This document shows positions 37,464-61,919 of a DNA stretch of 64,000 nucleotides, in pieces (positions within the stretch are counted from its first letter, which is position 1; the number at the start of each line of letters is the position of its first letter). The notes under the pieces are model-generated. The model searched no databases, was not told where the DNA came from, and was given only the letters and a program-made list of their open reading frames with translations. A program made the position numbers and the translations under genes. This DNA comes from Minisyncoccota bacterium (lineage in GTDB: Bacteria; Patescibacteriota; Minisyncoccia; UBA6257; GWB1-50-10): the NCBI GenBank assembly GCA_020059585.1, contig JAGVBU010000008.1:22163-86162 (forward strand). Reading direction: 5' to 3'.

Positions 37464-37952
37464 ATGAGAAAAAATATCATTCTTCTTTTCATCGCCGTAC
37501 TCGTTGTTATTCCTCTTTCCGCGCACGCGTTATCATTTGATATCTGGGAAAACACCGAAAAGACGATTACTTATGCAAGCGGAACAATGAGAGCAACAAC
37601 CACTGAAAACTGCAACATAGTTGGATCGTGCAATCTCTGCGATGCTCTTCAGGTTTTCAAAAACATCGTGAATATACTTTTCACAATCGCAATACCTCTT
37701 GCGGTTGCGCTCATTATATATGGAGGCATACGCATTATGACGGCAGGAGGATCCGAACAAAACGTAGCGGAGGCGAGAAATATAATCACAAGCGCGCTTA
37801 TCGGTCTCGCAATCGCCCTCGCGGCATGGATGATTGTGAGTGTCGTCATCTCGGTTATTGCTCAATCAAGCTTTCCCACAACCACGGGGAGTACGATTGA
37901 TTTTAAATTTTGGAATAATATCGATTGTACCGTATCCCCGCAGATAAATTAG
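37464..37952 (+). CDS. VirB2/TrbC-like pilin paralog 1
   Basis: Signal peptide then two hydrophobic helices flanking a conserved GGSEQNV loop. Confidence 0.5.
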   Translation: MRKNIILLFIAVLVVIPLSAHALSFDIWENTEKTITYASGTMRATTTENCNIVGSCNLCDALQVFKNIVNILFTIAIPLAVALIIYGGIRIMTAGGSEQNVAEARNIITSALIGLAIALAAWMIVSVVISVIAQSSFPTTTGSTIDFKFWNNIDCTVSPQIN

Positions 37953-37975
37953 AAAAATTGTTTTATAATAAAGTT

Positions 37976-38320
37976 ATGACTCCGAGAAAAAAAATAGTTT
38001 CGATTGCGTGGGGAGGTCTTGCTGCCCTGCTTATAGCTCCATTGAAAGCGCGCGGCGCGCAGATACGGCTTGAAAATCCTTTGAGAACCGACGATCCTAT
38101 CGAGCTTCTGGGATCTATTGTGGATTGGCTCATTATTGCGGGTGCCCCAATCGCGGTTGTTATGGTTATATATGGCGCCTTCCAAATTATGACCGCGCAA
38201 GGAGATACCGAAAAATTCACTTCAGGAAGAAAAACAATTGTGTACGCCATCGTCGGCTATGGTATAATTATTTGCGCATGGGGCATCGTTGCGGTCATCC
38301 AAAGCGTATTAGAGGAATAA
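37976..38320 (+). CDS. VirB2/TrbC-like pilin paralog 2
   Basis: Same topology as paralog 1; loop motif QGDTEKF. Confidence 0.5.
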   Translation: MTPRKKIVSIAWGGLAALLIAPLKARGAQIRLENPLRTDDPIELLGSIVDWLIIAGAPIAVVMVIYGAFQIMTAQGDTEKFTSGRKTIVYAIVGYGIIICAWGIVAVIQSVLEE

Positions 38321-38364
38321 GCCCCGGAAAGGTCGAGAACAGAAACATCATATATATTTATTAT

Positions 38365-38733
38365 ATGTCAAAGAAACTCACTATAATTGTCGCGTCTGCG
38401 CTTGTTCTTTTGCCTGTCCTTGTGGGAGCTCAGGGAGGTGTCACGGTTCCCGACGCATCTCAAACTATTTTGGCGGGAGGGTATCAGGGAATTGCCGATA
38501 CGCTTTCCACGATCGCGAACTGGATGCTTGGTGTTCTCCTTTTACTTGCGGTAATCTTTTTCATCTATGCGGGATTTTTGTATCTCACTTCCGGTGGAGA
38601 GGAAGACAAGGTAAAGAAAGCGAAGGATTTCCTCGTGTACGGACTTATCGCCGTCGCGGTGGGACTTTTAGCGAAAGGTCTTGTTTCCGTTGTCTCAAAC
38701 CTTGTAATAGGAGGAGAGGCTCCGATAAACTAA
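38365..38733 (+). CDS. VirB2/TrbC-like pilin paralog 3
   Basis: Signal peptide; IANWMLGVLLLLAVIFFIYAGFLYLTSGGEEDKVKKAKDFLVYGLIAVAVGLLAKG, closely related to paralog 4. Confidence 0.5.
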   Translation: MSKKLTIIVASALVLLPVLVGAQGGVTVPDASQTILAGGYQGIADTLSTIANWMLGVLLLLAVIFFIYAGFLYLTSGGEEDKVKKAKDFLVYGLIAVAVGLLAKGLVSVVSNLVIGGEAPIN

Positions 38734-38751
38734 TTTCGAATTTATCCGTCT

Positions 38752-39072
38752 ATGAAGAAATTTCTCTATATCCTGTTTTTCCCTCTTGTATTCTTTCCGC
38801 TTATTTCTTCAGCGGCGACGAGCACTATACAGGATGCTCAAGACGTCGTTGATCTCATTACAAAGATAGGAAATTGGATGTACGGGATACTTCTCGGACT
38901 TGCGGTAATATTCATCATCTTTGCGGCATACAATTTCATGACAAGCGGAGGATCTGAAGAAAAAGTGAAAGAAGCGAAAAATCAGGTTCTCTATACGCTT
39001 ATTGCCGTGGCGGTTGCGATGCTTGCGAAGGGATTTATATCGATTATTGAAAGTCTTGTGCTTACGAACTAA
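38752..39072 (+). CDS. VirB2/TrbC-like pilin paralog 4
   Basis: Signal peptide; IGNWMYGILLGLAVIFIIFAAYNFMTSGGSEEKVKEAKNQVLYTLIAVAVAMLAKG. Confidence 0.5.
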   Translation: MKKFLYILFFPLVFFPLISSAATSTIQDAQDVVDLITKIGNWMYGILLGLAVIFIIFAAYNFMTSGGSEEKVKEAKNQVLYTLIAVAVAMLAKGFISIIESLVLTN

Positions 39073-46298: not shown

Positions 46299-47282
46299 CT
46301 ACTGAAGCGCGAAAGGATTTTTCGCGCCAAGAACCTCGAAATGCACATGACATCCAGTCACTCCCTCTGTATTTCCGGTATTTCCCAATAGAGCTATTTT
46401 CGATCCTTGCGCCACCACATCACCAACACTCACAAGGTTTTTTGAAGTGTGCGCATATCGCGTGCGAATCCCATTTTCGTGTTCTATAAGAATAAAGTTT
46501 CCATATCCGCTGTTCCATGAATCATCGGAAGATTCATCAACTATCACTCCCGCTGCCGACGCAAATACCGGAGTGCCACACGCGTTCGCGATATCTACCG
46601 CATTCGTCTCGTGAAGTTTTCCCCAATTCCATCCTTTTGCCGGAAGTGTGAAAAATCCTCTGAGCGTGGGGAGTCCTTCTTCCGTTTCTCCCTCGCGTAG
46701 TACTATTCCTTTTTCTTCCGCATCGGGTATTACAATAAACGCGCCCGGAGTTTCAAAAATCTTCTCATATCCCGCGTTGAATGATTTTATTGCCTCCGCG
46801 TTCACCCTGAAAGAACGCGCCACCTCATACAATGAATCTTCCGTGCGTATCCGATAGAGAATCCCCGAGACCGGAGGTATGGGAATCTCCTTTTTCTCCT
46901 CCAACAATTCACTTCCCTCGTTTGCGGATATGATCGTCTCCGCGCTTACTCCAAATTGCGCGGCAACAGACGCAAGAGTGTCTCCCTTTCGTATTTTATA
47001 CATCTTCATGTCGCGCCGTTTCTGATTTTCTTCCGGTACCGCGCGCGATATCCCCGTCAACGTATCACGATATATCACGTCATCAATAGGTGCGGCAGCA
47101 TATTCATTCATCGACATCGCGTCCGCTTGGGGGCCAAAAAATTCCGAAATAGGTCCGCCGGATCCCCATGAAGCGGAGGTGCTTATATATCCCGAAAAAC
47201 CCCCCTCGGGACGGACAAAAAGAACCGAAAATATCAGTGTTCCCCCAAGAAAAAACAAGGACCACCATTCAGTCGTCTTCAA
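46299..47282 (-). CDS. LysM-domain M23 family metallopeptidase (peptidoglycan hydrolase)
   Basis: LysM (YKIRKGDTLASVAAQFGVSAETIISAN) plus M23 motifs HTSKNLVSVGD..GNTGNTEGVTGCHVHFEV. Confidence 0.75.
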   Translation of the reverse strand: MKTTEWWSLFFLGGTLIFSVLFVRPEGGFSGYISTSASWGSGGPISEFFGPQADAMSMNEYAAAPIDDVIYRDTLTGISRAVPEENQKRRDMKMYKIRKGDTLASVAAQFGVSAETIISANEGSELLEEKKEIPIPPVSGILYRIRTEDSLYEVARSFRVNAEAIKSFNAGYEKIFETPGAFIVIPDAEEKGIVLREGETEEGLPTLRGFFTLPAKGWNWGKLHETNAVDIANACGTPVFASAAGVIVDESSDDSWNSGYGNFILIEHENGIRTRYAHTSKNLVSVGDVVAQGSKIALLGNTGNTEGVTGCHVHFEVLGAKNPFALQ

Positions 47283-48158: not shown

Positions 48159-48677
48159 ATGAAAACCTATCAAAAAATACTCATTGCGGCATTTCTCTCG
48201 CTTATATTTCTTATGCCGTATAAAACAGACGCAATAGGTATTTTCACGCCGTTTGGGGGAAAAATTTTGACGTGGAGCCCCGTCGCCCCCGGATGCGCTC
48301 CATTTACCACGGCGGTATGCGTTGCCACACTCGGTACGATCTGTCCCACCGTTGAGGAACTCATCATCGCGCCTCCGAAGGGGGGTACGTTCGGAATATT
48401 GCGCGTCGACGGGATGACAATACCCGGACTCACCACAATATACGAAAAATACCTGTATCAGACGCCAGCCATCACCGTTCTCGGGAAATCAATAAATATA
48501 TGCAATATGTGCGATAACCTCTCCGGTATACCAGGGATAGGATCGATCACTGATGTAGTGTGCGACATTCCCGCGGTAAGCGATATCGTGGACACGCTCT
48601 GTGACTTTGTGGGGAGCGCGTGTCCCGTCGGGAACCTCATTTATAAAATGGGAACAAGTGGGGTGCCTTCATTGTAG
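48159..48677 (+). CDS. Cys-rich secreted protein (hypothetical), first gene of the T4SS-like block
   Basis: Signal peptide (cleavage near TDA-IG), 10 Cys in 150 residues, no TM. Confidence 0.4.
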   Translation: MKTYQKILIAAFLSLIFLMPYKTDAIGIFTPFGGKILTWSPVAPGCAPFTTAVCVATLGTICPTVEELIIAPPKGGTFGILRVDGMTIPGLTTIYEKYLYQTPAITVLGKSINICNMCDNLSGIPGIGSITDVVCDIPAVSDIVDTLCDFVGSACPVGNLIYKMGTSGVPSL

Positions 48678-48792
48678 GGTTCTCCGTGCGTGCTGTGTTA
48701 CCCTGTAACGCGTTATGTTGTATAATAAAAAGAGTATCACGCAAGTAAAATAGCGGGAATTCTTGTGAGTGCCGCTTTTTATCTCAACACAC

Positions 48793-49581: not shown

Positions 49582-49584
49582 ACG

Positions 49585-51289: not shown

Positions 51290-53449
51290 ATGAAATCGCA
51301 TATACAAAAAATACTCGGATCGGCGCTTACGCTTTTCTTTGCGTTTCTTGCGATCCCTTTCCCCGCTGACGCGCTCTTTTTCCTCGGACCGCTCGCCGTC
51401 GCGGCAATCGCGTACGCGGTACTCTATATCCTCCAATACATTGGCGCGATGTTCTTCAGTCTCGCGGGATATCTCGTTGGATTTTTCCTCGATTTCAATT
51501 ACCAGATACTCTCGCCGAATAATATGGTGGTTACGATTGGATGGGAGATCACACGTGACATCGCAAACCTCGGGTTCGTGCTTGTAATCATAATTATTGC
51601 GCTCGCAACCATCATCCGTTATCAGGATTACGGCGCGAAAAAACTTCTTCCCCGTCTCATCGGAGCCGCGCTCCTCGTAAATTTCAGTCTCTCTCTTGCG
51701 GGAGTGTTTATCGGGTTCTCTCACGTGATCACGCGCTATTTCTTTAACGCGGTTGCGGAGAAGGATAATATTGTCGATCTCGTAAAGACACTTTCTGGCG
51801 CGTTTGATCCGCAGGCGCTTTTTACCGAACCATCGGAACCAGAGCCTGTTGATCCCGATGAAGAAGCGGGAGGGCTTTCGGGATTCGGCACCGCGGTGCT
51901 TATGAACATCACGGGATTATTCTTCGTGGTAATTTTCACATTCATCGCATCGTTCGTGCTTCTCGCGTTCGCCCTTATGCTTCTTATCCGCTACGTCGCG
52001 CTCTCATTTCTTATGATCCTCGCTCCAATCGCGTGGCTTTTCTGGGTGATTCCCTCACTTGAAAGCCAATTCTCTAAATGGTGGAGCAGGTTTCTTAAAT
52101 GGGTATTTTTCGCCCCCGCCGTTTCCTTCTTCTTTTATCTCGCGCTGGTGAGCATTGGAAGAATGAAACAGGGTACGGGCGCCGTCACTCCCACTCAATT
52201 TTTCAAAAACGGATTTATATCGGCGATGATGCAGCAGGGCGCGCGCATGGCGATTCTTATCGGACTCCTCATTGGGGGACTTATGGTTGCCGACAGTATG
52301 GGCACCACGGGCGCCAAGGGCGCGATGAACCTCCTGAACAAAGGTGTGGATAAGAGCAAGAAATGGCTTGGAGCAAAGGCAAAGGAGGGCGCGACACGCG
52401 CCGCAACCGCGCCTCTCAGGACCGATACGGGAAGGAGTTTTGTAAACAAGCTTCAGACCCTCGGCAAGGATAGTAAATGGGGTGGTGCAGCCGCACCGTT
52501 ACGAATGATGGGATCAAGCCTTGCTGGTGTTACCGCAAAAGCGGAACAACAATACCAAACAACGAAGGCGAAGTTTGAAAAAATGAGTACGGAAAAAATT
52601 GCGGCGGGACACGCAAACGCAAACGACGAGGAACGCGCAGCAGGCGTTGACGTAATCGCGGAGAGAGGAAAGAAAATCGGAGACGCGCTTATTGACGCAG
52701 AAAAAGAGATTGAACGGTCCGTGAGAGCACTCGAAAAAGCGAAAGAAAGCGGCGATCAAAACTCTATAGTTGCCGCGGAAGAGCGTCTCGATAAGGCAAA
52801 CGAGAAGAAAGGAGCGGTTAAGAAGGAACAATATCAATACGAGGAAGCGCTCAAGAATCTCCCCGCAAATACTCGTGATGGAATTGGAAATATAGGACAA
52901 TATGTCTCCGACAAACAAAATAAAGTCCCCACAAAACAATTTGATATTGCTAACATTACAACGAAAGAGGATGGTGTCCTCTTCCGAAGAACAAAGAGGG
53001 GAGCACGGTACATCGCAACACGAAAAGCCCCCACCGAAGGAGAATTAAACGATGCGCGACAAGCAATACCTTCCGCCCAAAATAAACTGAACGCCTCTGT
53101 TGCGAATGCCGCAACAGCACGGACAAATCTTGCTGGATTTAGAACCGCAAGAACAACCGCAGAAGCAGATAAGAGAAATGCCCAGATAGAGCATGATAGA
53201 TTTGCAAACCAAAAAACATTCAATCAAGCGGATGAAAACGCGAGACTAAATAACCTCGCGGCGGCAAAAAGAAGATTAGATAATGCAACGCAACAAACAA
53301 AGGATATTGAAGAGGAGATAAAAGATACCGAGCAAAAGATACGTGAAGAAACAAAGGCTCGTGATGATCTTGCAAAAGCCCAGCAAAAACTACAAAATCT
53401 TGAACGCCAGAATCGAGAAGGATGGAGAAGAAAAGAGCACAAGCCATAA
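51290..53449 (+). CDS. VirB6/TrbL-like polytopic membrane protein with C-terminal coiled-coil tail
   Basis: ~330-aa N-terminal domain with at least 6 TM helices, then ~390-aa Ala/Lys/Glu/Gln-rich predicted coiled coil. Confidence 0.5.
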   Translation: MKSHIQKILGSALTLFFAFLAIPFPADALFFLGPLAVAAIAYAVLYILQYIGAMFFSLAGYLVGFFLDFNYQILSPNNMVVTIGWEITRDIANLGFVLVIIIIALATIIRYQDYGAKKLLPRLIGAALLVNFSLSLAGVFIGFSHVITRYFFNAVAEKDNIVDLVKTLSGAFDPQALFTEPSEPEPVDPDEEAGGLSGFGTAVLMNITGLFFVVIFTFIASFVLLAFALMLLIRYVALSFLMILAPIAWLFWVIPSLESQFSKWWSRFLKWVFFAPAVSFFFYLALVSIGRMKQGTGAVTPTQFFKNGFISAMMQQGARMAILIGLLIGGLMVADSMGTTGAKGAMNLLNKGVDKSKKWLGAKAKEGATRAATAPLRTDTGRSFVNKLQTLGKDSKWGGAAAPLRMMGSSLAGVTAKAEQQYQTTKAKFEKMSTEKIAAGHANANDEERAAGVDVIAERGKKIGDALIDAEKEIERSVRALEKAKESGDQNSIVAAEERLDKANEKKGAVKKEQYQYEEALKNLPANTRDGIGNIGQYVSDKQNKVPTKQFDIANITTKEDGVLFRRTKRGARYIATRKAPTEGELNDARQAIPSAQNKLNASVANAATARTNLAGFRTARTTAEADKRNAQIEHDRFANQKTFNQADENARLNNLAAAKRRLDNATQQTKDIEEEIKDTEQKIREETKARDDLAKAQQKLQNLERQNREGWRRKEHKP

Positions 53450-53458
53450 CACGCAACT

Positions 53459-55132
53459 ATGGATCAAAAAGACATATTAAACGCGTCACCGGAAAATCTT
53501 TTAACCTCTTTTCCTGTATGGGAAGAAAGCGTGTGGACCGCGCTTCAAAAAAAAGATTATGCGGAAGCGGCGGATAAACTTCAGGACACTCTAGAATATT
53601 TTACCGACGAGGGTCTCTCCCAAATACTATGGAAATCTCTTTTGGAGGGTATTCCTGCAGTTCGTGGCGCCCTTTCTTCTGATGAGTGGAATAGCGAAGT
53701 CCTTCCCTTTCTCGCACTTGCATTCATTAATTTTGCTGATGGACGCGCAATCGCCGATACATATCAAAGAACATCCCTTGAAATAATAAAAAAATTTCAC
53801 CCTCTTGTTGTAGATTCGATTCCCGGAGAAACTCCTGAAGAAAAAGTCGCGCTTCTTAAAACCTCCGCGTCATCAACGTACATCTATCTCACCGCAAGTC
53901 CCGCGCAGATTTTCGGACTCGGACTCTTTCCTATTCCCCAAAAACTCCCCTCGAATGAAAAAAAGAAGCCCGAGTATCAACTTGGATTTCTCTCGGAGAT
54001 ATTACGATATGGAATCTTCTCGTTCGACACCGCCCAAGATCTTTTTCTTATTGCTCAAAATAGAAAATTAGACGAAAAAAAGATGAGCGCGCTCGCGTAT
54101 GCGACGGGATCCGTACTCTTGGGAATTATAGCCCTCGATGATTTTTCCACCGCGCTGAAAGAAATAATTGATACACCTCCCGAAGAATGCGACTTCATCG
54201 CGAAAGAAATACGGGAAAAGATATTGGAGAAACACCGAAGGGAGATAAAGGAATTATTTGAAGGAACAAAAGAGGCCACAATCCCATCCGGAGAAACCGT
54301 CTCTCTGGAAGTGTTCGGATTTGACGGAGAAAAAGCAAAAGAAGCCGCTCCCGTGAAAATCACGCCGGAAAAAACGAGCGCGCCAGAAACGGCTCCTCTT
54401 GTGATACACAGAGAAAAACCGTCTCCTTTCGGATTTCAGAACGCGGGATCAAAACAATCATCCGGAAAAAGCTTTTCGCTTCCTTTTGGTTTTTTCAAAT
54501 CCAAATCGGATAATGCTTCTCCGAATCCGGTGCGCGCCACGATAGAGCTTCCAAAAATCCTCAAGCCGGAGGAAAAGAAAACTATTCATTATAGTGAACT
54601 CAGAACTCCCATTACTCCGTTTCAAAAAGAAAAGGCATTTATCAGTACCGACACGGAAAAGAGCGGGAAGGGTGATGATCAGAAAAAAACACCCGCGGAT
54701 ATCATACAGAAAAAAGAGGATAACGCGCTTAATCTTTCTTTAGTAGACACGAAAAAAGATCTTCAAAAAGAGAGGGCTCGCGTGAAAGAGGTGTTTTCCT
54801 CTATTTCTGCCGGTTCCGCGTCCTCGCAGAAAAACATTATAAAAGAAGATACCCGTCCGACGGCTATTTTGAAAAAAGAATATACTCTTATAAACAAATC
54901 TCCGGAAAAAATACCCCCATCTTCTAATATATCCTCCGATACCCCCCTTAAGAAACAGGTTCAGGCAGATTTGAAAAACGTCAGCGCAAAAACCCCGCAA
55001 GAAAAACCCCAACTCACCGGAAAGGGATTCTTTTGGGGGTTTCCAAAAAAGAAACCCGCCGAAGCACCCGCCGTTAAAAGACCCGAAACAGGTCCGGAAA
55101 TCGAGGGAAATAAACTTAATCTCAAAAAATAA
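53459..55132 (+). CDS. Hypothetical protein; structured N-terminal half, disordered K/E/P-rich C-terminal half
   Basis: 557 aa, no signal peptide or TM; low-complexity C-terminus. Confidence 0.35.
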   Translation: MDQKDILNASPENLLTSFPVWEESVWTALQKKDYAEAADKLQDTLEYFTDEGLSQILWKSLLEGIPAVRGALSSDEWNSEVLPFLALAFINFADGRAIADTYQRTSLEIIKKFHPLVVDSIPGETPEEKVALLKTSASSTYIYLTASPAQIFGLGLFPIPQKLPSNEKKKPEYQLGFLSEILRYGIFSFDTAQDLFLIAQNRKLDEKKMSALAYATGSVLLGIIALDDFSTALKEIIDTPPEECDFIAKEIREKILEKHRREIKELFEGTKEATIPSGETVSLEVFGFDGEKAKEAAPVKITPEKTSAPETAPLVIHREKPSPFGFQNAGSKQSSGKSFSLPFGFFKSKSDNASPNPVRATIELPKILKPEEKKTIHYSELRTPITPFQKEKAFISTDTEKSGKGDDQKKTPADIIQKKEDNALNLSLVDTKKDLQKERARVKEVFSSISAGSASSQKNIIKEDTRPTAILKKEYTLINKSPEKIPPSSNISSDTPLKKQVQADLKNVSAKTPQEKPQLTGKGFFWGFPKKKPAEAPAVKRPETGPEIEGNKLNLKK

Positions 55133-55203: not shown

Positions 55204-55704
55204 ATGGCAACCTTTCAAGTTCCCCAATTTATAGATCAGAAACCGAAAATCGTAGGTCCCCTTACGCTCCAGCAATTTGCGTTTGTCGGAAGCGCGGCGC
55301 TTCTCAGTTTTATCTTCTATTACACATTTGATACGTTTCTCTGGATATTTTTTTCCATTGTTCTTGGATCAATCGCCCTCCTCCTCGCGTTCGGAAAAGT
55401 GAACGGGCAGGAGGCAACCATCGTCCTGAAATCCCTTTTTAAATTTCTTCTTGAGCCCAGGCTTTTTCTTTGGGAAAAAAACTTCTCCGAGAAAAAAAAG
55501 GAAGAGTCAGCGGAAAGTATCGCATCGGTCAGAAACACAATGAGCATCCAGCAGAAACTCAAATCGATAACACTGAACATAACGACGGGGAAGGCGTTTT
55601 CACCAAAAATATCCCAAGAAACGCAGAAAAAGGAGGGCTTCCAAGTGGCTACATTTTCCACCGGAGAGAAAAAATTTGTAAAAAAAGTCGACTACAGCGA
55701 ATAG
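55204..55704 (+). CDS. PrgI/VirB3-like small membrane protein
   Basis: N-terminus MATFQVPQFIDQKPKIVGPLTLQQFAFVGSAALLSF then a second TM, matching the PrgI-family signature and position immediately upstream of VirB4. Confidence 0.5.
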   Translation: MATFQVPQFIDQKPKIVGPLTLQQFAFVGSAALLSFIFYYTFDTFLWIFFSIVLGSIALLLAFGKVNGQEATIVLKSLFKFLLEPRLFLWEKNFSEKKKEESAESIASVRNTMSIQQKLKSITLNITTGKAFSPKISQETQKKEGFQVATFSTGEKKFVKKVDYSE

Positions 55705-55746: not shown

Positions 55747-56400
55747 ATGCCACCAAAGAGCCAACCAGACGCAAAGCCATCACAAGAATTTGTTGCGGTG
55801 AAGAAAATACACGATGGCGTTCTCTACCTGAAAAAGGGTGGAATTTGCCGCGTACTTATTGTAAGCGGGATTAATTTTGATCTGAAATCAGAAGCGGAAC
55901 AAAATATGATACTTTCAAGTTTTCAAAATTTCCTCAACACCCTTGACTTCTCCGTCCAATTTTTCATCCACTCAAGAAAAGTAAATATTGAAGAATACAT
56001 GGAGAAAATGAAAGAACGGAAAGAGCAGGAAACAAATGAGCTCCTAAAAATACAAATCGAAGAATACATGAATTTTATACAATCCTTCGTTGATCAAAAT
56101 GATATTGTGACAAAATCCTTTTTCATTGTGGTGCCCTATGAATCAGTACACGTCGTCAATCAAGCACGGGGAGTATTGTCCCTCTTCAAAAAATCAGCCC
56201 CCCAATCCACGGAAACTATCGCCCAAGAGGATATACAACAATTAAACCATCGGGTGGATCAGGTAACCCTAGGACTCGAGCAAATAGGTCTCCGCGTAGC
56301 CCCTCTCGAAGACGATGAGCTTCTCGAGTTGTTCTACAACCTTTACAATCCTCGCCTCGTCGAAAAAAAAGGACTTGAGTTGTCACATAAAGAAAAATAA
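55747..56400 (+). CDS. VirB4/TraE-family N-terminal domain, separate ORF
   Basis: 217 aa resembling the N-terminal domain of Gram-positive VirB4 (VAVKKIHDGVLYLKKGGICRVLIVSGINFDL...); TAA stop 4 nt before the ATG of the ATPase ORF. Confidence 0.55.
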   Translation: MPPKSQPDAKPSQEFVAVKKIHDGVLYLKKGGICRVLIVSGINFDLKSEAEQNMILSSFQNFLNTLDFSVQFFIHSRKVNIEEYMEKMKERKEQETNELLKIQIEEYMNFIQSFVDQNDIVTKSFFIVVPYESVHVVNQARGVLSLFKKSAPQSTETIAQEDIQQLNHRVDQVTLGLEQIGLRVAPLEDDELLELFYNLYNPRLVEKKGLELSHKEK

Positions 56401-56404
56401 CACC

Positions 56405-58147
56405 ATGCCCACACCATATACCCCCTCGTCAGAAGATCTTCCAAATATTATCGCTCCCGCGGGAATAGAGGTAAATTCCAATTATCTTAAAATAGGGGAT
56501 TATTACGCTAAAACATTTTTCATATTCACATATCCGCGATACATCTCAAGCGGATGGTTCTCTCCCATACTTAATCTTTCCGAAATGATGGATATCTCCA
56601 TTTTTATGCATCCAATGGATACCGCGCTGACACTCCGCAATCTCACAAAGAAAGTTGCTCAAATAGAGGCGGAAATGAATGAAAAACAGGACAAAGGAAT
56701 TGTCCGCGATCCAGTGCTTCAGACCGCGCATGAAGACGTCGAGTCACTTCGCGACGCGATTCAACAGGCACGGGAGAAGTTATTTCAGGTTGGAGTATAT
56801 ATCACTATATACGGAGCCGATATAAAGAAGTTGGAACAACTCCAGAATAAAGTTGAATCAATGCTTGAAAGTAAGCTTGTTTATATAAAACCAGCGCTTT
56901 TCAGGCAGATTGAGGGGATGAACACCACATTTCCTTTCGCGAAAGATGAGCTTTCCGTTCTCACCCCTCTCAATTCAGGTCCCGCATCGTCTCTTTTTCC
57001 CTTTATATCTCCCGATCTTTCTTCCGAAAAAGGCGTTCTTTTCGGGGTAAATATGCACAACAACAGCCTTATCATCTTTGATCGTTTTTCGCTTGAAAAC
57101 GCGAACTCAGTCATCTTTGCAAAATCAGGATCCGGAAAATCATATTCCACAAAATTACAAATACTCAGATCCCTTATGATGGGAACAAACGTTGTGGTGT
57201 TGGATCCTGAAAATGAATACAAAAACCTTGCGGATGCGATTGGGGGAAGTTATTTCAAAATATCACTCACATCGGAAAGTCATGTGAATCCATTCGATAT
57301 TCCTGTTATTCCAGAGGGTGAGGATCCCGCTGACGTATTTAAATCGCACGTATTAAATCTTGCTGGACTTCTTAAATTAATGTTCGGAGAAATCACTGCG
57401 GAAGAAGAATCTATTATCGATCGTGTGCTTATAGAAACCTACGCGTCACGTGATATTACCGCCGAAAATTTCGGAGCAACGAGGGAATTAAATCCTCCAC
57501 TCCTCGAAGACCTTCAGGTGGTACTCGAAAACACCGAGGGAGGATCAGCGCTCGCGAAACGCCTTGAAAAATATACCCGCGGATCATATGCGGGATTCAC
57601 AAACGTCCCCACGAACGTTGATATTAAAAACAGACTTATCGTGTTCTCGATCCGCGATCTCGAAGAGGAGCTCCGCCCCATCGCGATGTATATTATCTTG
57701 AACTTCGTGTGGAATCTCATTCGTTCAGAATTAAAACAGCGTATTCTCGTCATTGATGAGGCGTGGATAATGATGAAAAACAAAGACAGCGCGTCATTTC
57801 TCTTTGGACTCGTAAAAAGAGCACGGAAATATTATCTCGGCGTGACGTGTATTACGCAGGACGTGGAGGATTTCCTCAAATCAGAATACGGGAAGCCTAT
57901 TATAACAAATTCCTCAATGCAGATTCTCCTCAAACAATCGCCGACAAGTATTGATTCTGTAGGAAAAACCTTCAATCTCACCGAAGGGGAGAAGGCTTTT
58001 CTCCTTGAGTGCAGCGTTGGAGAAGGATTGTTTTTTGCGGGAATGAAACATGTTGCGATAAAAATAATTCCCTCATACACCGAAGACCAGATTATCACCA
58101 CCAATCCGGAACAGATGCTTGCGATAAAAGGCCTCACTCAGCGATAG
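56405..58147 (+). CDS. VirB4/TraE-family type IV secretion ATPase, C-terminal ATPase portion
   Basis: YLKIGDYYAKTFFIFTYP signature, Walker A FAKSGSGKSYST, Walker B RILVIDEAWIMM, C-terminal CagE/TrbE region. Confidence 0.75.
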   Translation: MPTPYTPSSEDLPNIIAPAGIEVNSNYLKIGDYYAKTFFIFTYPRYISSGWFSPILNLSEMMDISIFMHPMDTALTLRNLTKKVAQIEAEMNEKQDKGIVRDPVLQTAHEDVESLRDAIQQAREKLFQVGVYITIYGADIKKLEQLQNKVESMLESKLVYIKPALFRQIEGMNTTFPFAKDELSVLTPLNSGPASSLFPFISPDLSSEKGVLFGVNMHNNSLIIFDRFSLENANSVIFAKSGSGKSYSTKLQILRSLMMGTNVVVLDPENEYKNLADAIGGSYFKISLTSESHVNPFDIPVIPEGEDPADVFKSHVLNLAGLLKLMFGEITAEEESIIDRVLIETYASRDITAENFGATRELNPPLLEDLQVVLENTEGGSALAKRLEKYTRGSYAGFTNVPTNVDIKNRLIVFSIRDLEEELRPIAMYIILNFVWNLIRSELKQRILVIDEAWIMMKNKDSASFLFGLVKRARKYYLGVTCITQDVEDFLKSEYGKPIITNSSMQILLKQSPTSIDSVGKTFNLTEGEKAFLLECSVGEGLFFAGMKHVAIKIIPSYTEDQIITTNPEQMLAIKGLTQR

Positions 58148-58153
58148 CACCAC

Positions 58154-58540
58154 ATGGAAGACAAGGGAAACAATCGCGTTGAAACACCTCGAAACGAGGA
58201 ACGGAATGATGTCACTGAAGCGGAAGCTATTGTGTGGCTCTCATTCCTTATCGGATTCGACGGAATATGCATTTTACTCGATCTCACGGGAGTCGGGATG
58301 GGTATTGCCCCATTCCTTCAGGGATTCGGCACGTTTTCTTCGGGTATGTGGTTCGAAAAAACAAAAGGAGACAAGAACGCGATGAAAATGCAGAGACAGC
58401 TTATAAAATACATCTCAAATGTCGCGCCATTCCTTCCTACACTCTCGATTGCGTTTGCGATTGAAGCGTATATGCACAACCATCCGGAAAAATTCGAGAA
58501 GATAGAGAAGGCCTTAAACACGAAAACTCCCTCGAAATAG
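58154..58540 (+). CDS. Small membrane protein (hypothetical)
   Basis: 128 aa with two or three hydrophobic helices. Confidence 0.3.
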   Translation: MEDKGNNRVETPRNEERNDVTEAEAIVWLSFLIGFDGICILLDLTGVGMGIAPFLQGFGTFSSGMWFEKTKGDKNAMKMQRQLIKYISNVAPFLPTLSIAFAIEAYMHNHPEKFEKIEKALNTKTPSK

Positions 58541-58555
58541 TGTATAATAAATGGA

Positions 58556-59245
58556 ATGAGGACACGGTTTCTTGTGATTTTTCTTGGAGTAATCGCGCTC
58601 TGCCTCGCGTCTTTTAACGTAACACAAAGTCAGACCGCGGCGCCGCAGGAAGAGGTGATATTATCGTGGCAGGCGCTTAATTTTTTCCCCGCGAATTTCG
58701 AGGGGAAGGCTCTTGCGTCTCCTTTTAGCCCTATACTTGCAAGCGTTGAGGTTATTGAAAACGGAAAATTTACCGACCTTTCTCAGTCATCAATATCATG
58801 GAAGATTGATAATAAATTTCTTCAAAGCGGTGTTGGACTCAAGGAAGTTTTATTCAGAATACAGAAAAATAAGGGTGATTTTCATATCATACAGGTTTCT
58901 ATAGAAAAAAACGGGAAGAAAAGTCAGGGAAGCGTTCTTATACCGATCGCCCCGCAGACAATTGTGGTGGAACTTCCATATTCCGGGAACACGATATTCT
59001 CCAATGTAGAGAACACCATAAAAGCGATTCCTTATTTCTTCAATATAAAAACCTTAAACGAGCTTTCTTTTTTCTGGCAGATAAACGAAAGGAAGGAGGG
59101 CGGAAAAGATAATAATGTGCTTATCCTGAAAACGAGCGCGCCTCAGACAAAAAGCCAAAGTCTCATTGAAATCACTTCATCGGCCCAAAACAACACAAAT
59201 CCCTTGGAGTTCGCGAAAACGAAGATTTGGTTGAATGTAAAATAG
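58556..59245 (+). CDS. Secreted protein (hypothetical)
   Basis: Signal peptide (CLASFNVTQS-QTA), 229 aa, beta-rich composition. Confidence 0.35.
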   Translation: MRTRFLVIFLGVIALCLASFNVTQSQTAAPQEEVILSWQALNFFPANFEGKALASPFSPILASVEVIENGKFTDLSQSSISWKIDNKFLQSGVGLKEVLFRIQKNKGDFHIIQVSIEKNGKKSQGSVLIPIAPQTIVVELPYSGNTIFSNVENTIKAIPYFFNIKTLNELSFFWQINERKEGGKDNNVLILKTSAPQTKSQSLIEITSSAQNNTNPLEFAKTKIWLNVK

Positions 59246-59260
59246 ATATAAACACCACTT

Positions 59261-60490
59261 ATGAAAACGTGGCATAAAATACTCATCATAGTAATCCTTC
59301 TCGGTATCGGAATTTTCGCGCTATTTTATTTCTTTAATAAGATAGCCGTCCCCGTCCCCATAGAGGAATCGCAGGGTGTTCTTTTTCCTGGATTTGAAAA
59401 AAACGGAGGCACCCAAGGGTTGGGGGATGTAGGGAGTCCATCCACGGAAAAAACTGCCGTACTCTCGAAAATATCAGACGTGCCTGTATTTGATTTCTGG
59501 ATATCGAAAGACACGGGAGAGTTGTATTACATCACCAACAAAGGAAGGATTTTTTCTGGGAAGGACGGATCTGATATCGATATGAATACTCAGGAACTCA
59601 GCTCCCTGAATATGATTATCCCAAGCGAAACAGGAAAGAAAATCATCGCGTCTTTCGGGGATCCGCAGAAACCCCGCTGGGGAGTGTTTGATGTTGTTGA
59701 TGGGGTGTGGAAGCCTCTTTCTGATAAAATAACTTCCGCCATGTGGGGGAAGGATGAGGATACGCTTATAGGAACCATTCAAAATGAAGATGGACATTCG
59801 ATCGCGTCTTTTGATATTTCAAAAAATCCCATAAAAAGCTCCGTCATCCTTAAGGATTTTCGGATAAAAGATGTGTCATTTTCATGGAAGAATCCCGACT
59901 CAATAATGATTCTTGAACGCTCAAGCGCGACAATAAAAGGGCGTCTTTGGGAGTTTAATACAAAAAATCTTCTCGTAAAACAGGTAGATCCCGGAACAAG
60001 CGGGCTCTCATTTCTTTGGAGCGCATCCAGAGAGTACGCGCTTAGATTTTCAAATCCAAACAATCTCCTTGTGCTTAATGGAAATCTCGAACCGGTAAAT
60101 CCTCTGACTATTACCTCCATCCCTCAAAAATGCGGATTCAGTGAGGACGCGCTCTATTGTTTTATCCCGCAGGATACCGACTCTTTTTTGGAATTCTCGC
60201 TTCCTGATGATTATTTCCAGAATAAATTTTATTCCACGGATACATTGATCTCTATCAATCTCGAAACCGATAAGATGGAAACGCTTCTACAAAGCGGTGT
60301 GGGAAATTTTTCTCCGATTGACGGACGGCATCCGCGGGTACACGAAGGAGATGTATTTTTCGTGAATAAATATGACTGGTTCGTGTATCGCGTCCATATT
60401 TCAGAAGAGGGAGAGGGACTAGAAAAATCTAATGAAGTAAACCAAAACGAAGAAAACCAAATTTACAATGAACCTTCCCCGTTTAATTAA
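59261..60490 (+). CDS. Membrane-anchored extracytoplasmic protein (hypothetical; possible beta-propeller)
   Basis: N-terminal TM anchor (ILIIVILLGIGIFALFYFF), 409 aa, repeated beta-strand-like segments. Confidence 0.35.
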   Translation: MKTWHKILIIVILLGIGIFALFYFFNKIAVPVPIEESQGVLFPGFEKNGGTQGLGDVGSPSTEKTAVLSKISDVPVFDFWISKDTGELYYITNKGRIFSGKDGSDIDMNTQELSSLNMIIPSETGKKIIASFGDPQKPRWGVFDVVDGVWKPLSDKITSAMWGKDEDTLIGTIQNEDGHSIASFDISKNPIKSSVILKDFRIKDVSFSWKNPDSIMILERSSATIKGRLWEFNTKNLLVKQVDPGTSGLSFLWSASREYALRFSNPNNLLVLNGNLEPVNPLTITSIPQKCGFSEDALYCFIPQDTDSFLEFSLPDDYFQNKFYSTDTLISINLETDKMETLLQSGVGNFSPIDGRHPRVHEGDVFFVNKYDWFVYRVHISEEGEGLEKSNEVNQNEENQIYNEPSPFN

Positions 60491-61919
60491 ATTTATTGTA
60501 CTTTTCGCGTGTGTGGCGGTGTTTTTTACGCCTGCGGTGTTTGCGCAAACCCCCATCACGATTGATACTACGTTTCTCACTCCCGATACAAACGCTTCGA
60601 GCGTCCCACAATTCATATCGAAATTTTATGAGCTCGGACTCGGTATTGCTGGTATTATCGCGGTCGGGATGATTGTTGTGGGCGCAATATTTTACACAAT
60701 ATCAGGCGCAAGCCCTCAGAAAAAAGGGGAGGCAAAAGATATTATTTTTTCGGCCATATGGGGGGTAGTGCTTCTTTTCGGCTCGTATGTAATATTGAAA
60801 TCAATAAACCCTCAACTTATAGAGCTCCGCGATCCAGGAAGCGGTCTTGGGGGAGAATTGCCGAGTCCTATGGATACAGGAAACTGTTCTTCAACAACTC
60901 CTATTGTTGATATAAATGGAAATCCAAATCCAAACGGGGCGACCTTAAATCCGTGCGCTGAAGGAGAACCACCAATAAATCCGGAGACAGGATACTGCCA
61001 ATGTTACAAAAGAGAAATAGCACCCATAGCGTGTCCCATCGAACTTGAGCCTGTCTCATATAGAAACAACGATGGAAGTCTCCCGACATATCGATGGACG
61101 ATGTCAGGAGAAAAAGTAAATTCAACAAATACGCACCCCCCAGGAAGAACAAGTGCTGGTGACAATATATGCGCGAGGAAGGTTCTTATTCCTGAGCACA
61201 CCGACTTCTACACTGTTGATTGCGATCCGTGTGAAGAGGGATGGCCGAGTAGTGGGTTCTTTGGTTATGCGGACGATGAACACAACTTCGAAAAGAACAC
61301 CACAGGATGGGTGTGGCCGTACTATCCTAAACTAGCGGGAGGTTCCGCTGAAACAGCACCACAGTACGCGCTTTGCGTGATGTATGCCTACTATGATCCT
61401 GAAGACGAGGAGATTGTCCGCGCGGATCTCGATGGATTGAAACCTTGTGTTGAATTTTCCTCATCCACACCAAGAGCAACAGGGAATTACGAGCAAGCTG
61501 GGTGGGAATCAAGAAATAACGAGATTCTCCAAAGATTACAAAACGCCGGTATATCTGTCACAAGTAGTGGAAATTGCGGAGATCCGAACAATCCTAGTTG
61601 CACCAATGTTGGGGGGCTCCCTGATTATGCCGTCGATCAGATTATCTATATAAAACAGAATTGCAACTGTGAGGTGAGGGTTACAGGGGGAGCTGAGACA
61701 GGACACCAATCACACGGATTAAACCGTCCTGTGTTTGATCTTGCATCAAATCAGACGCTTGCCCAATATCTCTTCAATAATCGAACAGGAAATGGGCTTG
61801 GTTTCGTCCAACAAATATGCACTACAAACGCATACAGCCAGTATCGATTTAATTGTGGAAGTTACACCGAAGCACAAGAACACCTCCATGTGAAAACTGG
61901 AATAAATTGGAGTCCTTAG
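60468..61919 (+). CDS. VirB2/TrbC-like pilin module fused to a ~370-aa Cys-rich extracellular domain
   Basis: N-terminal 115 aa repeat the pilin-paralog topology and loop motif (TISGASPQKKGEAKD); C-terminal domain has 16 Cys and a possible HxnD...ExxH metal-site pattern. Confidence 0.5.
   Translation: MNLPRLIKFIVLFACVAVFFTPAVFAQTPITIDTTFLTPDTNASSVPQFISKFYELGLGIAGIIAVGMIVVGAIFYTISGASPQKKGEAKDIIFSAIWGVVLLFGSYVILKSINPQLIELRDPGSGLGGELPSPMDTGNCSSTTPIVDINGNPNPNGATLNPCAEGEPPINPETGYCQCYKREIAPIACPIELEPVSYRNNDGSLPTYRWTMSGEKVNSTNTHPPGRTSAGDNICARKVLIPEHTDFYTVDCDPCEEGWPSSGFFGYADDEHNFEKNTTGWVWPYYPKLAGGSAETAPQYALCVMYAYYDPEDEEIVRADLDGLKPCVEFSSSTPRATGNYEQAGWESRNNEILQRLQNAGISVTSSGNCGDPNNPSCTNVGGLPDYAVDQIIYIKQNCNCEVRVTGGAETGHQSHGLNRPVFDLASNQTLAQYLFNNRTGNGLGFVQQICTTNAYSQYRFNCGSYTEAQEHLHVKTGINWSP

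What the first reader, a model, noticed from the sequence alone, without database searches (positions are those of the whole stretch)
60468..61919. Pilin module fused to a 16-cysteine extracellular domain with a possible zinc-hydrolase motif
Residues 1 to ~115 repeat the pilin-paralog topology and loop motif. They are followed by ~370 residues with 16 Cys, Gly/Pro/Asn-rich loops and, near the C-terminus, GHQSHGLNRPVFD ... EHLHV. That pattern is reminiscent of the HxnD / ExxH metal site of LAS-type (M15-like) peptidoglycan peptidases. The cluster contains no VirB1-like lytic transglycosylase. A pilin-tethered cell-wall hydrolase or adhesin would fill that role, or could act on a host cell wall. 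The assignment is tentative.
Basis: inference. Interest (0 to 1): 0.65.

Follow-up and report, generated by a model that had tools for sequence, protein, structure and literature searches.

The report
Pilin fused to cell-wall zinc peptidase
The last gene of a type IV secretion operon in an ultrasmall (Patescibacteria/CPR) bacterium encodes a pilus-subunit-like membrane anchor joined, through a disulfide-rich stalk, to a probable zinc enzyme of the kind that cuts bacterial cell walls; this may explain how these secretion machines get through a cell wall without the usual wall-cutting protein.

Summary
ORF 60468-61919 (483 aa) has four parts:
- a signal peptide;
- a VirB2-like pilin hairpin (Pfam PF18895, above threshold);
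- a 228-residue stalk with 10 Cys;
- a 140-residue C-terminal domain with 6 Cys.

- **Conservation:** E410, H413, H416, D424 and H472 are kept in 107-108 of 108 homologs. Position 474 is always H or D.
- **Sequence:** profiles hit only Hedgehog N-domains in the PDB, weakly.
- **Structure:** a confident AlphaFold model (pLDDT 87.7) has the LAS endopeptidase MepA as its best solved match. Its viral matches are enriched in M15A peptidases. All these scores are modest.

The stalk matches no known family and could not be modelled.

The gene closes a conserved chromosomal Patescibacteria T4SS operon (VirB6-like, PrgI, split VirB4) beside rnpA-yidC-jag. Pilin plus LAS-type domain is a large family: 81 of 95 representatives carry the pilin module, as do 12 of 12 CPR genome loci and 0 of 10 non-CPR loci.

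A published precedent exists: the essential Southlakia protein SEML1_0007, next to virB4, has a Hedgehog/DD-peptidase domain. I found no description of the pilin fusion itself.

The most likely role is a pilin-anchored peptidoglycan peptidase serving the T4SS. Activity, substrate and location are untested.

The parts
60468..61919 (+). Whole ORF (483 aa + stop): signal peptide, pilin hairpin, Cys-rich stalk, LAS-type domain
60468..60545 (+). Predicted signal peptide, residues 1-26 (...PAVFA|QT)
   Evidence: Hydrophobic segment 1-32. The cleavage site is inferred from the sequence and was not predicted with a dedicated tool.
60546..60812 (+). VirB2-like T4SS pilin module, residues 27-115: two hydrophobic helices with the Lys-rich loop SGASPQKKGEAK
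   Evidence: PF18895 matches residues 45-105, E 1.2e-8, 35.3 bits against cut-off 26.6. Hydropathy segments 52-82 and 91-113. AF2 helices 46-78 and 83-113. The module is 53-96% identical in orthologs, more conserved than the stalk.
60813..61496 (+). Linker plus Cys-rich stalk, residues 116-343: 10 Cys; conserved TGWVWPYYPK and CVMYAYYDPE..ADLDGLKPC; unknown fold
   Evidence: 10 Cys in 228 residues. Invariant Cys listed. No Pfam or PDB match. Only about 7 of 1.84 billion representatives cover it in full. AF2 pLDDT is mostly below 60.
61497..61916 (+). C-terminal LAS-type (hedgehog/DD-peptidase-like, M15-like) domain, residues 344-483: 6 Cys
   Evidence: AF2 pLDDT 87.7, pTM 0.83. Foldseek top PDB match is MepA. 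BFVD matches include M15A peptidases. Profiles hit only Hedgehog in the PDB. hhalign to the other pilin-fused subtype gives E 1.6e-6.
61683..61739 (+). Motif 1, residues 406-424, TGGAETGHQSHGLNRPVFD: E410, H413, H416 and D424 (H-x7-D)
   Evidence: E410 108/108, H413 108/108, H416 107/108, D424 107/108. Aligns with Shh [23 protein letters not shown].
61869..61889 (+). Motif 2, residues 468-474, EAQEHLH: E-x3-H-x-H
   Evidence: H472 108/108. Position 474 is H in 16 and D in 92. A Glu 3-4 residues upstream of H472 is conserved. The spacing equals my reading of Shh E177-x3-H181-x-H183, based on PMC6027127 and the Shh-N sequence recalled from memory.
59261..60490 (+). Conserved partner gene: 409 aa, N-terminal transmembrane segment, no known family
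   Evidence: Adjacent to the pilin-LAS gene in every locus examined. 32-42% identical to the partners in L001, L004 and L005. The L003 and L009 partners are related to each other.
56315..58147 (+). VirB4-type ATPase of the T4SS operon
   Evidence: PF19044 E 1e-28, plus AAA_10 and DUF87.
55747..56400 (+). TraC-like N-terminal VirB4 fragment, encoded as a separate gene
   Evidence: PF11130 E 3e-6. 64% identical to the 'TraC-like' gene of L001.
55204..55704 (+). PrgI (VirB3-like) protein
   Evidence: PF12666 E 1e-8.
51290..53449 (+). VirB6/TrbL-like polytopic membrane protein
   Evidence: 51% identical over 614 aa to the L001 protein annotated PF19590 TrbL_3.
37464..39069 (+). Array of four short T4SS pilin paralogs, separate from the operon
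   Evidence: All four match PF18895, E 1e-11 to 1e-13.
46299..47282 (-). LysM + Peptidase_M23 gene near the operon: a second candidate wall hydrolase
   Evidence: PF01551 E 1.1e-24 and LysM E 1.2e-14.

Best explanation
The gene encodes a membrane-anchored, outward-facing zinc peptidase that belongs to the Patescibacteria type IV secretion system.

**Proposed mechanism**
- After signal-peptide cleavage, the VirB2-like hairpin sits in the membrane with its Lys-rich loop inside and both ends outside.
- The C-terminal 368 residues are therefore extracytoplasmic.
- A lineage-specific stalk of 228 residues and 10 Cys, presumably disulfide-bonded, holds a 140-residue LAS-type domain away from the membrane.
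- By homology, H416, D424 and H474 would bind Zn2+. H413, E468 and H472 would complete a hedgehog/DD-peptidase-type active site.
- I infer that the enzyme cleaves peptide stems or cross-links of peptidoglycan at the site of the machine. It would then do the job that VirB1/PrgK-type hydrolases do in other T4SSs.
- The highly conserved pilin module would dock the enzyme to the VirB6/VirB3/VirB4 apparatus that handles pilins.

**Shown:** domain composition, topology signals, conservation of the catalytic motif, operon membership, and the breadth of the fusion family.

**Inferred:** zinc binding, peptidase activity, peptidoglycan as the substrate, and action at the T4SS.
For: - **Pilin module:** above the Pfam threshold, with signal peptide, hairpin and basic loop.
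- **Catalytic residues:** essentially invariant in 108 homologs and in ten full-length relatives.
- **LAS assignment:**
  - Profile searches of the PDB return only Hedgehog N-domains (20 of 20 and 22 of 22 hits).
  - Relatives hit HH_signal and Peptidase_M15_4 in Pfam.
  - The model is confident (pLDDT 87.7). Its strand-helix order is beta(VRVT), His loop, beta(VFDL), alpha, beta, beta(HLHV), which I judge from memory to fit the LAS core.
  - The top solved match is MepA, and the BFVD matches are enriched in M15A, MepK and M15.
- **Link to peptidoglycan:** relatives of the same domain are fused to PG_binding_1/PG_binding_3 (P0172, P0244) and to SLT (2 of 95).
- **Operon:** the gene is the last of a conserved VirB6 / PrgI / TraC-like / VirB4 operon in the window, L001-L006 and L010.
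- **Fusion family:** 81 of 95 representatives found with a pilin-free profile carry PF18895. All 12 CPR loci have both parts in one ORF.
- **Pilin conservation:** the pilin module is 53-96% identical among orthologs, against 33-47% for the stalk. This argues for specific protein contacts rather than a passive anchor.
- **Literature:**
  - Most Patescibacteria with VirB2 lack VirB1 (PMC12102498).
  - In Southlakia the essential gene next to virB4, SEML1_0007, has a C-terminal 'Hedgehog/DD-peptidase' domain (PMC10633639 Table S2).
Against: - The window protein's LAS domain hits no Pfam or NCBIfam peptidase family, even at E <= 1.
- All matches to solved LAS structures are weak: Foldseek E 0.04 and TM 0.44, HMMER E about 0.1, hhalign to Shh-N probability 20%.
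- The best HMMER hit, 4c4m_A, appears to be inflated by what looks like a C-terminal His-tag in the chain (my reading of the alignment).
- The spacing is H-x7-D, not the canonical H-x6-D.
- I could not inspect model coordinates, so the metal-site geometry is unverified.
- In 5 of 7 further CPR loci with enough flank, no VirB4 lies within about 10 kb of the fusion gene. The link to the T4SS is therefore frequent, not universal.
- A LysM-M23 peptidase near the operon could be the T4SS hydrolase instead.
- Hedgehog itself shows that this fold can serve as a ligand.
Confidence: 0.6

Rival explanations
1. The protein is incorporated into a T4SS pilus, probably as a tip or minor subunit. It carries the peptidase and the Cys-rich module out to the host bacterium, where it binds the host surface and cuts the host cell wall. 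It would then be an attack or attachment tool of an epibiont rather than a tool for remodelling the cell's own wall.
For: - The pilin module is a true PF18895 match and is more conserved than the ectodomain.
- The stalk varies between lineages and is sometimes absent. There are 285-aa forms, a different duplicated Cys-rich insert in P0009 and P0010, and swapped LAS subtypes. This is the pattern expected for host-facing parts.
- Patescibacteria T4SS and pilins are essential for epibiotic growth, and a pilus is suspected (PMC10633639, PMC12857230).
- Stand-alone relatives of the domain are secreted proteins of actinomycetes and even of some animals, which would fit an antibacterial role.
Against: - A 368-residue globular extension on every subunit seems incompatible with the tight packing of VirB2-type filaments. 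This rests on established pilus structures, not on a test here.
- No pilus has been shown in these organisms.
- Nothing here separates the cell's own wall from the host wall as target.
- The short forms have only about 30 linker residues, which would keep the enzyme close to the cell's own membrane.
Confidence: 0.25
2. The C-terminal domain is not an enzyme. It would be a binding module, as Hedgehog is a ligand. Together with the Cys-rich stalk it would make the protein a pilin-anchored adhesin.
For: - Sequence matches are closest to the Hedgehog signalling domain.
- The stalk is Cys-rich, and one relative has a marginal EGF-like hit.
- No adhesins of the PrgB type were found in Patescibacteria T4SS clusters (PMC12102498).
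Against: - Every residue expected for catalysis, not only the metal ligands, is conserved in 107-108 of 108 homologs, including the Glu upstream of H-x-H. Lineages in which the fold lost its activity, such as Drosophila Hh, lost these residues (PMC6027127).
- Fusions of the domain to peptidoglycan-binding and SLT domains point to a wall enzyme.
Confidence: 0.1
3. The His/Asp motifs are a chance resemblance. The C-terminal domain would then be an unrelated small disulfide-bonded fold.
For: - No match to any LAS structure or family reaches conventional significance for the window protein itself.
- Foldseek also lists Amuc_1100 and histidine-kinase ATP-binding domains at similar E-values.
Against: - Independent lines converge on the same superfamily: two profiles, Pfam hits in relatives, two structure libraries and motif spacing.
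- The motif residues are the most conserved positions of the domain.
Confidence: 0.05

Closest known systems
SEML1_0007 of Candidatus Southlakia epibionticum ML1 (Wang et al. 2023, PMC10633639, Tables S1 and S2)
   Same: - It is encoded in a Patescibacteria T4SS cluster downstream of virB4, near dnaA/dnaN.
- Its C-terminal domain (residues 951-1105) is assigned to the ECOD 'Hedgehog/DD-peptidase' group by structure-based annotation.
- It is essential in Tn-seq.
- It shows that a LAS-type peptidase is a functional part of these systems.
   Different: - It is an 1113-aa protein with no reported pilin module. In that organism the pilins are separate short genes (SEML1_0014-0019).
- In the window the peptidase is fused directly to a pilin.
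LAS metallopeptidases: Hedgehog N-domain / bacterial Hh-like M15A, D-Ala-D-Ala carboxypeptidase M15, MepA (M74), MepK
   Same: - Small alpha/beta domain.
- A His and an Asp on the loop and strand after the first beta-strand, H-x-H on the last strand, and a Glu four residues before it, as in Shh E177-x3-H181-x-H183.
- Extracytoplasmic location.
- Best structural matches are MepA and M15A proteins.
   Different: - H-x7-D instead of H-x6-D.
- Three presumed disulfides.
- No Pfam, NCBIfam or PDB match at significant E for this protein.
- It forms its own uncurated family, with consensus TGGTE.GH..H....D ... E..H.[HD].
VirB1 / PrgK / TraG(pIP501)-type T4SS peptidoglycan hydrolases
   Same: It is encoded in a T4SS operon, is extracytoplasmic and membrane-anchored (as the monoderm hydrolases are), and is presumed to open the wall locally for the machine (PMC12102498).
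   Different: - Those enzymes use SLT/lysozyme-like and CHAP domains, which cut the glycan strand or act as amidases. This one has a metallopeptidase fold and no SLT or CHAP domain.
- Its anchor is a pilin hairpin rather than a single transmembrane helix.
- It is a functional analogue, not a family member.
VirB2/TrbC conjugative pilins and the Patescibacteria pilin arrays (PF18895)
   Same: Signal peptide, two hydrophobic helices, a short basic loop, a Pfam match above threshold, and a location near virB4.
   Different: - Known VirB2-type pilins are about 70-130 residues with no large extra domain. This one carries a 368-residue C-terminal extension.
- It forms its own orthologous group at the end of the operon, distinct from the array paralogs at 37464-39069.

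Membership tests
T4SS pilin (Pfam PF18895; VirB2/TrbC-like) | Match to the family HMM above the curated gathering score | tested here: met
   35.3 bits against cut-off 26.6, E 1.2e-8, residues 45-105. PF04956 TrbC is only marginal (E 0.086).
T4SS pilin (Pfam PF18895; VirB2/TrbC-like) | Signal peptide followed by two hydrophobic helices joined by a short basic loop | tested here: met
   Hydrophobic segments 1-32, 52-82 and 91-113, with loop SGASPQKKGEAK. AF2 helices 46-78 and 83-113.
T4SS pilin (Pfam PF18895; VirB2/TrbC-like) | Encoded with virB4 and other T4SS genes | tested here: met
   It is the last gene of the operon with VirB6-like, PrgI, TraC-like and VirB4 genes. The same arrangement occurs in L001-L006 and L010. 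In five other CPR loci the fusion gene has no virB4 within about 10 kb.
T4SS pilin (Pfam PF18895; VirB2/TrbC-like) | Polymerises into an extracellular pilus | not testable with these tools
   Needs microscopy or biochemistry. The weak Foldseek match of the hairpin to an archaeal conjugation pilin (8dfu, E 2.8) is not informative.
LAS zinc peptidases (M15 / Hedgehog-DD-peptidase / MepA) | H-x(6)-D zinc-binding motif | tested here: inconclusive
   The window protein has H416-x7-D424. The wider family of the same domain has H-x6-D (SH.NGYK.DI). Both residues are conserved in 107 of 108 homologs.
LAS zinc peptidases (M15 / Hedgehog-DD-peptidase / MepA) | H-x-H (or H-x-D) motif on the last strand, with a catalytic Glu upstream | tested here: met
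   E468-x3-H472-L-H474. H472 is 108/108. Position 474 is H in 16 and D in 92. A Glu 3-4 residues upstream is conserved.
LAS zinc peptidases (M15 / Hedgehog-DD-peptidase / MepA) | Significant match to a curated family model (Peptidase_M15, M15_2/3/4, HH_signal, M74) | tested here: not met
   There is no hit for the window protein at E <= 1 in Pfam or at E <= 0.1 in NCBIfam. Only relatives give sub-threshold hits: HH_signal in 3 of 10 and 9 of 95, best E 3.7e-4, and M15_4 in one.
LAS zinc peptidases (M15 / Hedgehog-DD-peptidase / MepA) | LAS fold: similarity to a solved LAS structure | tested here: inconclusive
LAS zinc peptidases (M15 / Hedgehog-DD-peptidase / MepA) | Zinc binding and peptidase activity on peptidoglycan peptides | not testable with these tools
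   Biochemistry is required. Model coordinates could not be inspected.
VirB1/PrgK-type T4SS cell-wall hydrolases | SLT/lysozyme-like and/or CHAP catalytic domain | tested here: not met
   There is no SLT, lysozyme or CHAP match. It is therefore not a member and can only be a possible functional analogue.

The most novel reading that the evidence does not exclude
A whole family of conjugative-type (VirB2-like) pilins in Patescibacteria carries its own wall-cutting zinc peptidase. The T4SS would place it at the tip or base of a pilus, so that the filament breaches the peptidoglycan of the host bacterium, or of the producer. This would be the first enzyme-bearing T4SS pilin. It would explain why these essential T4SSs lack VirB1. 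The interchangeable stalks and LAS cassettes would then be host-range determinants.
Probability: 0.22. Interest if true: 0.8.

Novelty: new variant of a known kind. Interest (0 to 1): 0.6.

Why it matters
The Patescibacteria T4SS is essential for epibiotic growth in the one species tested, and its function is described as completely unknown (PMC11665869, PMC12857230). A recent survey notes that most of these genomes have VirB2-like pilins but no VirB1, and leaves open which protein opens the wall (PMC12102498).

A conserved, operon-encoded pilin that is physically fused to a hedgehog/DD-peptidase-type domain gives a concrete candidate that can be tested. There are at least several hundred 50%-identity clusters of such proteins.

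The work also defines an uncurated LAS-like domain family. Stand-alone members occur in actinomycetes, Chloroflexota, myxobacteria and a few eukaryotes.

The variable stalk and the swapped peptidase subtypes suggest a host-facing part that evolves quickly.

Tried and rejected
- **Full-length AlphaFold model** with 10 sequences: pLDDT 48, so unusable for the stalk. Its Foldseek search gave only generic helical hairpins.
- **Direct searches with the protein:** phmmer against the PDB found nothing relevant. Pfam and NCBIfam gave no peptidase family for the window protein.
- **Word-indexed homolog search** with the pilin-free profile returned only the same seven proteins. The exhaustive representative search was needed to see the family.
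A 5-sequence alignment worked.
- **One 370-residue domain?** Considered and rejected. BLAST by parts shows that the stalk and the LAS domain have different sets of relatives.
- **Strength of the Hedgehog hits:** the best one, 4c4m_A at E 0.016, aligns the H-x-H motif to a terminal run of His. I read that run as an expression tag, so I did not rely on this hit.
- **Promoter and terminator scan** around the gene found nothing above shuffled expectation.
- **Literature:** searches found no description of a pilin-peptidase fusion. This covers open-access text only.
Full report
**1. What is in the sequence**

ORF 60468-61919 (+) encodes 483 residues. Its ATG lies 23 nt inside the end of the upstream gene (59261-60490), so the two are probably co-translated as part of one operon.

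Hydropathy shows three hydrophobic segments: 1-32, 52-82 and 91-113. The loop between the last two is SGASPQKKGEAK.
- The first segment ends in ...PAVFA|QT and looks like a signal peptide.
- The other two coincide with long helices in the AlphaFold model (46-78 and 83-113).
- With the basic loop inside, everything after residue ~115 is extracytoplasmic. This topology is an inference from the positive-inside rule.

Residues 45-105 match Pfam PF18895 (T4SS_pilin) at 35.3 bits, above the 26.6-bit cut-off.

The remaining 368 residues hold exactly 16 Cys. That is 4.35% against 0.46% in 36 other long ORFs of the window (P = 4e-11). The quoted motifs are at residues 412-424 and 471-475.

**2. The extracellular part is two modules with different histories**

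BLAST by parts against the homologs gave the pattern below.

| Part | Residues | Relatives detectable by BLAST |
|---|---|---|
| Stalk, 10 Cys | 116-343 | P0001-P0008, P0011, P0026, P0027 (33-47% identity, except the 96%-identical near-duplicate P0001); short fragments in P0016, P0017, P0020 |
| C-terminal domain, 6 Cys | 344-483 | P0001, P0009, P0010, P0012-P0019, P0022, P0024, P0025 (33-50% identity, except P0001 at 99%) |

- Only the window protein and its 98%-identical twin P0001 combine this stalk with this C-terminal subtype.
- The other stalk-bearing proteins end in a different subtype (ITSLTGG.H..NS.HYKG.A.DI ... HIHI, or TEAFPPT..H...CH..G.CVDI ... GGH.H).
- The two subtypes are nevertheless homologous: hhalign gives E 1.6e-6, probability 90%, with the motifs in register.
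- Other lineages have no stalk (285-aa proteins P0012, P0013 and P0015). P0009 and P0010 have an unrelated duplicated Cys-rich insert.

The architecture is therefore pilin, then a variable stalk, then an interchangeable LAS-type cassette.

The stalk matches nothing in Pfam, NCBIfam or the PDB. Only about 7 of 1.84 billion representatives cover it fully. It could not be modelled (pLDDT mostly below 60). Its fold and role remain unknown.

**3. Is the C-terminal domain a LAS-type metallopeptidase?**

*Conservation.* The figures below come from 108 homologs of the window's subtype.

| Residue | Conservation |
|---|---|
| E410 | 108/108 |
| H413 | 108/108 |
| H416 | 107/108 |
| D424 | 107/108 |
| H472 | 108/108 |
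| 474 | H in 16, D in 92 |

- A Glu lies 3-4 residues before H472.
- In ten full-length relatives with the other subtypes, H416, D424, H472 and H474 are invariant.
- In 95 representatives, the equivalent His and Asp are the only invariant columns.

*Sequence similarity.*
- Profiles of both subtypes, searched against all PDB sequences, return Hedgehog N-domains and nothing else among the top hits (20 of 20 and 22 of 22).
- They align ..TGG.TE.GH....H..G...D with Shh [23 protein letters not shown]. E-values are only 0.02-0.2.
- The best hit, 4c4m_A, aligns the H-x-H motif to a terminal run of His that I read as an expression tag, so I discount it.
- hhalign of the 108-sequence profile against Shh-N gives E 1.1e-3 but probability 20%.
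- Relatives give sub-threshold Pfam hits to HH_signal (3 of 10 and 9 of 95; best E 3.7e-4) and one to Peptidase_M15_4.

*Structure.*
- With a 108-sequence alignment, AlphaFold gives a confident model of residues 335-483 (pLDDT 87.7, pTM 0.83).
- The element order is helix, helix, beta(VRVT), loop with H413/H416, beta(VFDL, with D424), helix, beta, short helix, beta(HLHV). From memory of known LAS structures, this fits the LAS core.
- Foldseek against the PDB puts E. coli MepA, a LAS murein endopeptidase, first (E 0.043, prob 0.87, TM 0.44).
- Against BFVD, the top three hits have probability 0.98-0.99, and one of them is 'Peptidase M15A, C-terminal'.
- Further down the BFVD list are microvirus peptidases, a protein annotated after Sonic hedgehog, 'Peptidase M15', 'Murein endopeptidase K', tape-measure proteins and a D-Ala-D-Ala carboxypeptidase.

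*Motif.* The LAS definition is H-x6-D plus H-x-H, with Shh ligands H141, D148 and H183 and catalytic E177 (PMC6027127). The window protein has H-x7-D and E468-x3-H472-x-H474. The wider family has H-x6-D.

Taken together, I regard the LAS assignment as well supported (about 0.85). It is not proven, and the protein does not qualify as a member of any curated M15 or Hedgehog family.

**4. Evidence that the substrate is peptidoglycan**

This evidence is indirect.
- The same domain occurs fused to PG_binding_1/PG_binding_3 (P0172, P0244), to an SLT lytic transglycosylase (2 of 95) and to a C39-like peptidase (P0025).
- All characterised bacterial LAS enzymes act on peptidoglycan peptides (established knowledge; PMC6027127).

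**5. Genomic context**

The window carries a Patescibacteria-type chromosomal T4SS operon on the + strand:

| Coordinates | Gene |
|---|---|
| 48159-51276 | Three secreted or membrane proteins without a known family |
| 51290-53449 | VirB6/TrbL-like, 51% identical to a TrbL_3-annotated ortholog |
| 53459-55132 | 557-aa protein |
| 55204-55704 | PrgI / VirB3-like |
| 55747-56400 | Separately encoded TraC-like VirB4 N-fragment |
| 56315-58147 | VirB4 ATPase |
| 58154-59245 | Two small proteins |
| 59261-60490 | 409-aa membrane protein (partner gene) |
| 60468-61919 | The pilin fusion |

- Convergent genes follow: jag (R3H), yidC and rnpA.
- ksgA lies just upstream of the operon (47361-48140).
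- This is the arrangement described for Patescibacteria T4SS near the replication origin (PMC12102498).
- Gene-for-gene synteny holds in a Jorgensenbacteria contig (L001/L002).
- With the last two genes swapped, it holds in three more distant contigs, whose fusion proteins have no stalk or a different stalk (L003-L005). L006 and the Brennerbacteria locus L010 also have virB4, a VirB6-like gene and prgI upstream of the fusion gene.
- The ~380-409-aa neighbour is homologous across these loci and always adjacent.

The link is not universal. In five other CPR loci with 7-10 kb of upstream flank, no VirB4 is nearby. In L009 the pair sits between ribonucleotide reductase and a Wzy/yidC region.

**6. 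Size of the family**

An exhaustive search with a profile that excluded the pilin module found 690 representatives (50%-identity clusters) at E <= 1e-3. Nearly all matched only the C-terminal domain.
- Of 95 examined, 81 carry PF18895.
- In species-representative genomes, all 12 CPR loci have the pilin and LAS parts in one ORF, and none of 10 non-CPR loci does.
- Non-CPR relatives of the window's subtype are stand-alone secreted proteins of 130-200 aa. They occur in Streptomyces and other actinomycetes, Ktedonobacteria, Polyangia and Deinococcus. A few eukaryotes also have them: a tardigrade, a nematode, a mollusc and a mushroom.

**7. How it most likely works**

My best reading, at 0.6, has four steps.
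- The pilin hairpin anchors the protein in the membrane, and probably docks it to the pilin-handling part of the machine.
- The docking idea rests on conservation: the hairpin is 53-96% identical among orthologs, against 33-47% for the stalk.
- The stalk acts as a disulfide-stabilised spacer or binding module.
- The LAS domain cleaves peptidoglycan peptides locally, doing what VirB1/PrgK hydrolases do elsewhere.

This fits two published observations.
- Most Patescibacteria with VirB2 lack VirB1 (PMC12102498).
- In Southlakia epibionticum the essential gene immediately downstream of virB4, SEML1_0007, has a C-terminal 'Hedgehog/DD-peptidase' domain by structure-based annotation. Next to it is an essential lysozyme/CHAP protein (PMC10633639, Tables S1 and S2).

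The main rival, at 0.25, keeps the chemistry but moves the protein into a pilus, as a tip or minor subunit, and makes the host wall the target. The variable stalk and the swapped cassettes favour a host-facing role. The size of the extension argues against incorporation along a VirB2-type shaft.

A non-catalytic adhesin (0.1) is disfavoured by the full conservation of the catalytic residues. A chance motif (0.05) is disfavoured by the convergence of independent lines of evidence.

A LysM-M23 peptidase at 46299-47282 (-) is a second candidate wall hydrolase near the operon. It weakens the 'missing VirB1' argument for this particular genome.

**8. Novelty**

All the components are known kinds: the VirB2-like pilin, the LAS peptidase fold, and T4SS-associated wall hydrolases. 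A Hedgehog/DD-peptidase domain in a Patescibacteria T4SS cluster is already recorded in a supplementary table.

What I did not find described in the searchable literature is three things:
- the direct fusion of a T4SS pilin to such a peptidase;
- its breadth, at hundreds of clusters;
- its modular stalk and cassette variation.

The C-terminal domain family is absent from Pfam and NCBIfam. I therefore rate the finding as a new variant of a known kind, with interest 0.6.

Noticed in passing
window 37464-39069 (+); 39266-40156 (-): There is an array of four divergent short T4SS pilin genes, all PF18895. It lies 10 kb upstream of the start of the T4SS operon (18 kb from virB4). It sits between a solute-binding protein gene and a tyrosine recombinase (Phage_integrase) gene. 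It resembles the pilin arrays reported for Saccharimonadia and Microgenomatia.
   Followed up: partly
window 46299-47282 (-): A LysM + Peptidase_M23 gene, itself a LAS-type enzyme, lies about 1 kb upstream of the T4SS operon on the opposite strand. It is a second candidate T4SS wall hydrolase. L003 has a LysM-LysM-CHAP gene in the equivalent place.
   Followed up: partly
window 55747-56400 and 56315-58147 (+): VirB4 is encoded as two genes: a TraC-like N-terminal part and the ATPase. In the window they overlap by 86 nt. The same two-gene split is present in all related loci (L001-L005).
   Followed up: partly
proteins P0171-P0270; loci L014-L085: The window's LAS subtype defines an uncurated family of small secreted proteins. 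Its consensus is SSG.C....CTS...TGGTE.GH...SH.NGYK.DI...E.SHWDI. It is abundant in Streptomyces and other actinomycetes, Ktedonobacteria, Polyangia and Deinococcus. It is also present in a tardigrade, a nematode, a mollusc and a mushroom, which may reflect horizontal transfer.
   Followed up: no
proteins P0009, P0010: These pilin-LAS proteins carry an unrelated insert between the pilin and the LAS domain. It is internally duplicated and Cys-rich (WGWDE..SCC....GG.A.C..GGWGYD...CC). The stalk has therefore been invented more than once.
   Followed up: no
window 59261-60490 (+); L001 8822-9994; L003 10897-12036; L004 11261-12457; L005 10886-12052; L009 10370-11509: A conserved membrane-anchored protein of about 380-409 aa, with no known family, is always adjacent to the pilin-LAS gene. 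This holds even where no virB4 is nearby. It is probably a functional partner.
   Followed up: partly
window 48159-48677 (+): The first gene of the operon encodes a 172-aa secreted protein with 8 Cys and no family match. It is another disulfide-rich extracellular component.
   Followed up: no
window 60600-60806 (residues 48-113 of the target): The pilin module has a weak, sub-threshold match to NCBIfam NF045849, 'Mbov_0395 family pilin-like conjugal transfer protein' of Mycoplasma ICEs (E 3.4e-4). This hints that pilin-like proteins also exist in monoderm MPF-FATA-type systems.
   Followed up: no
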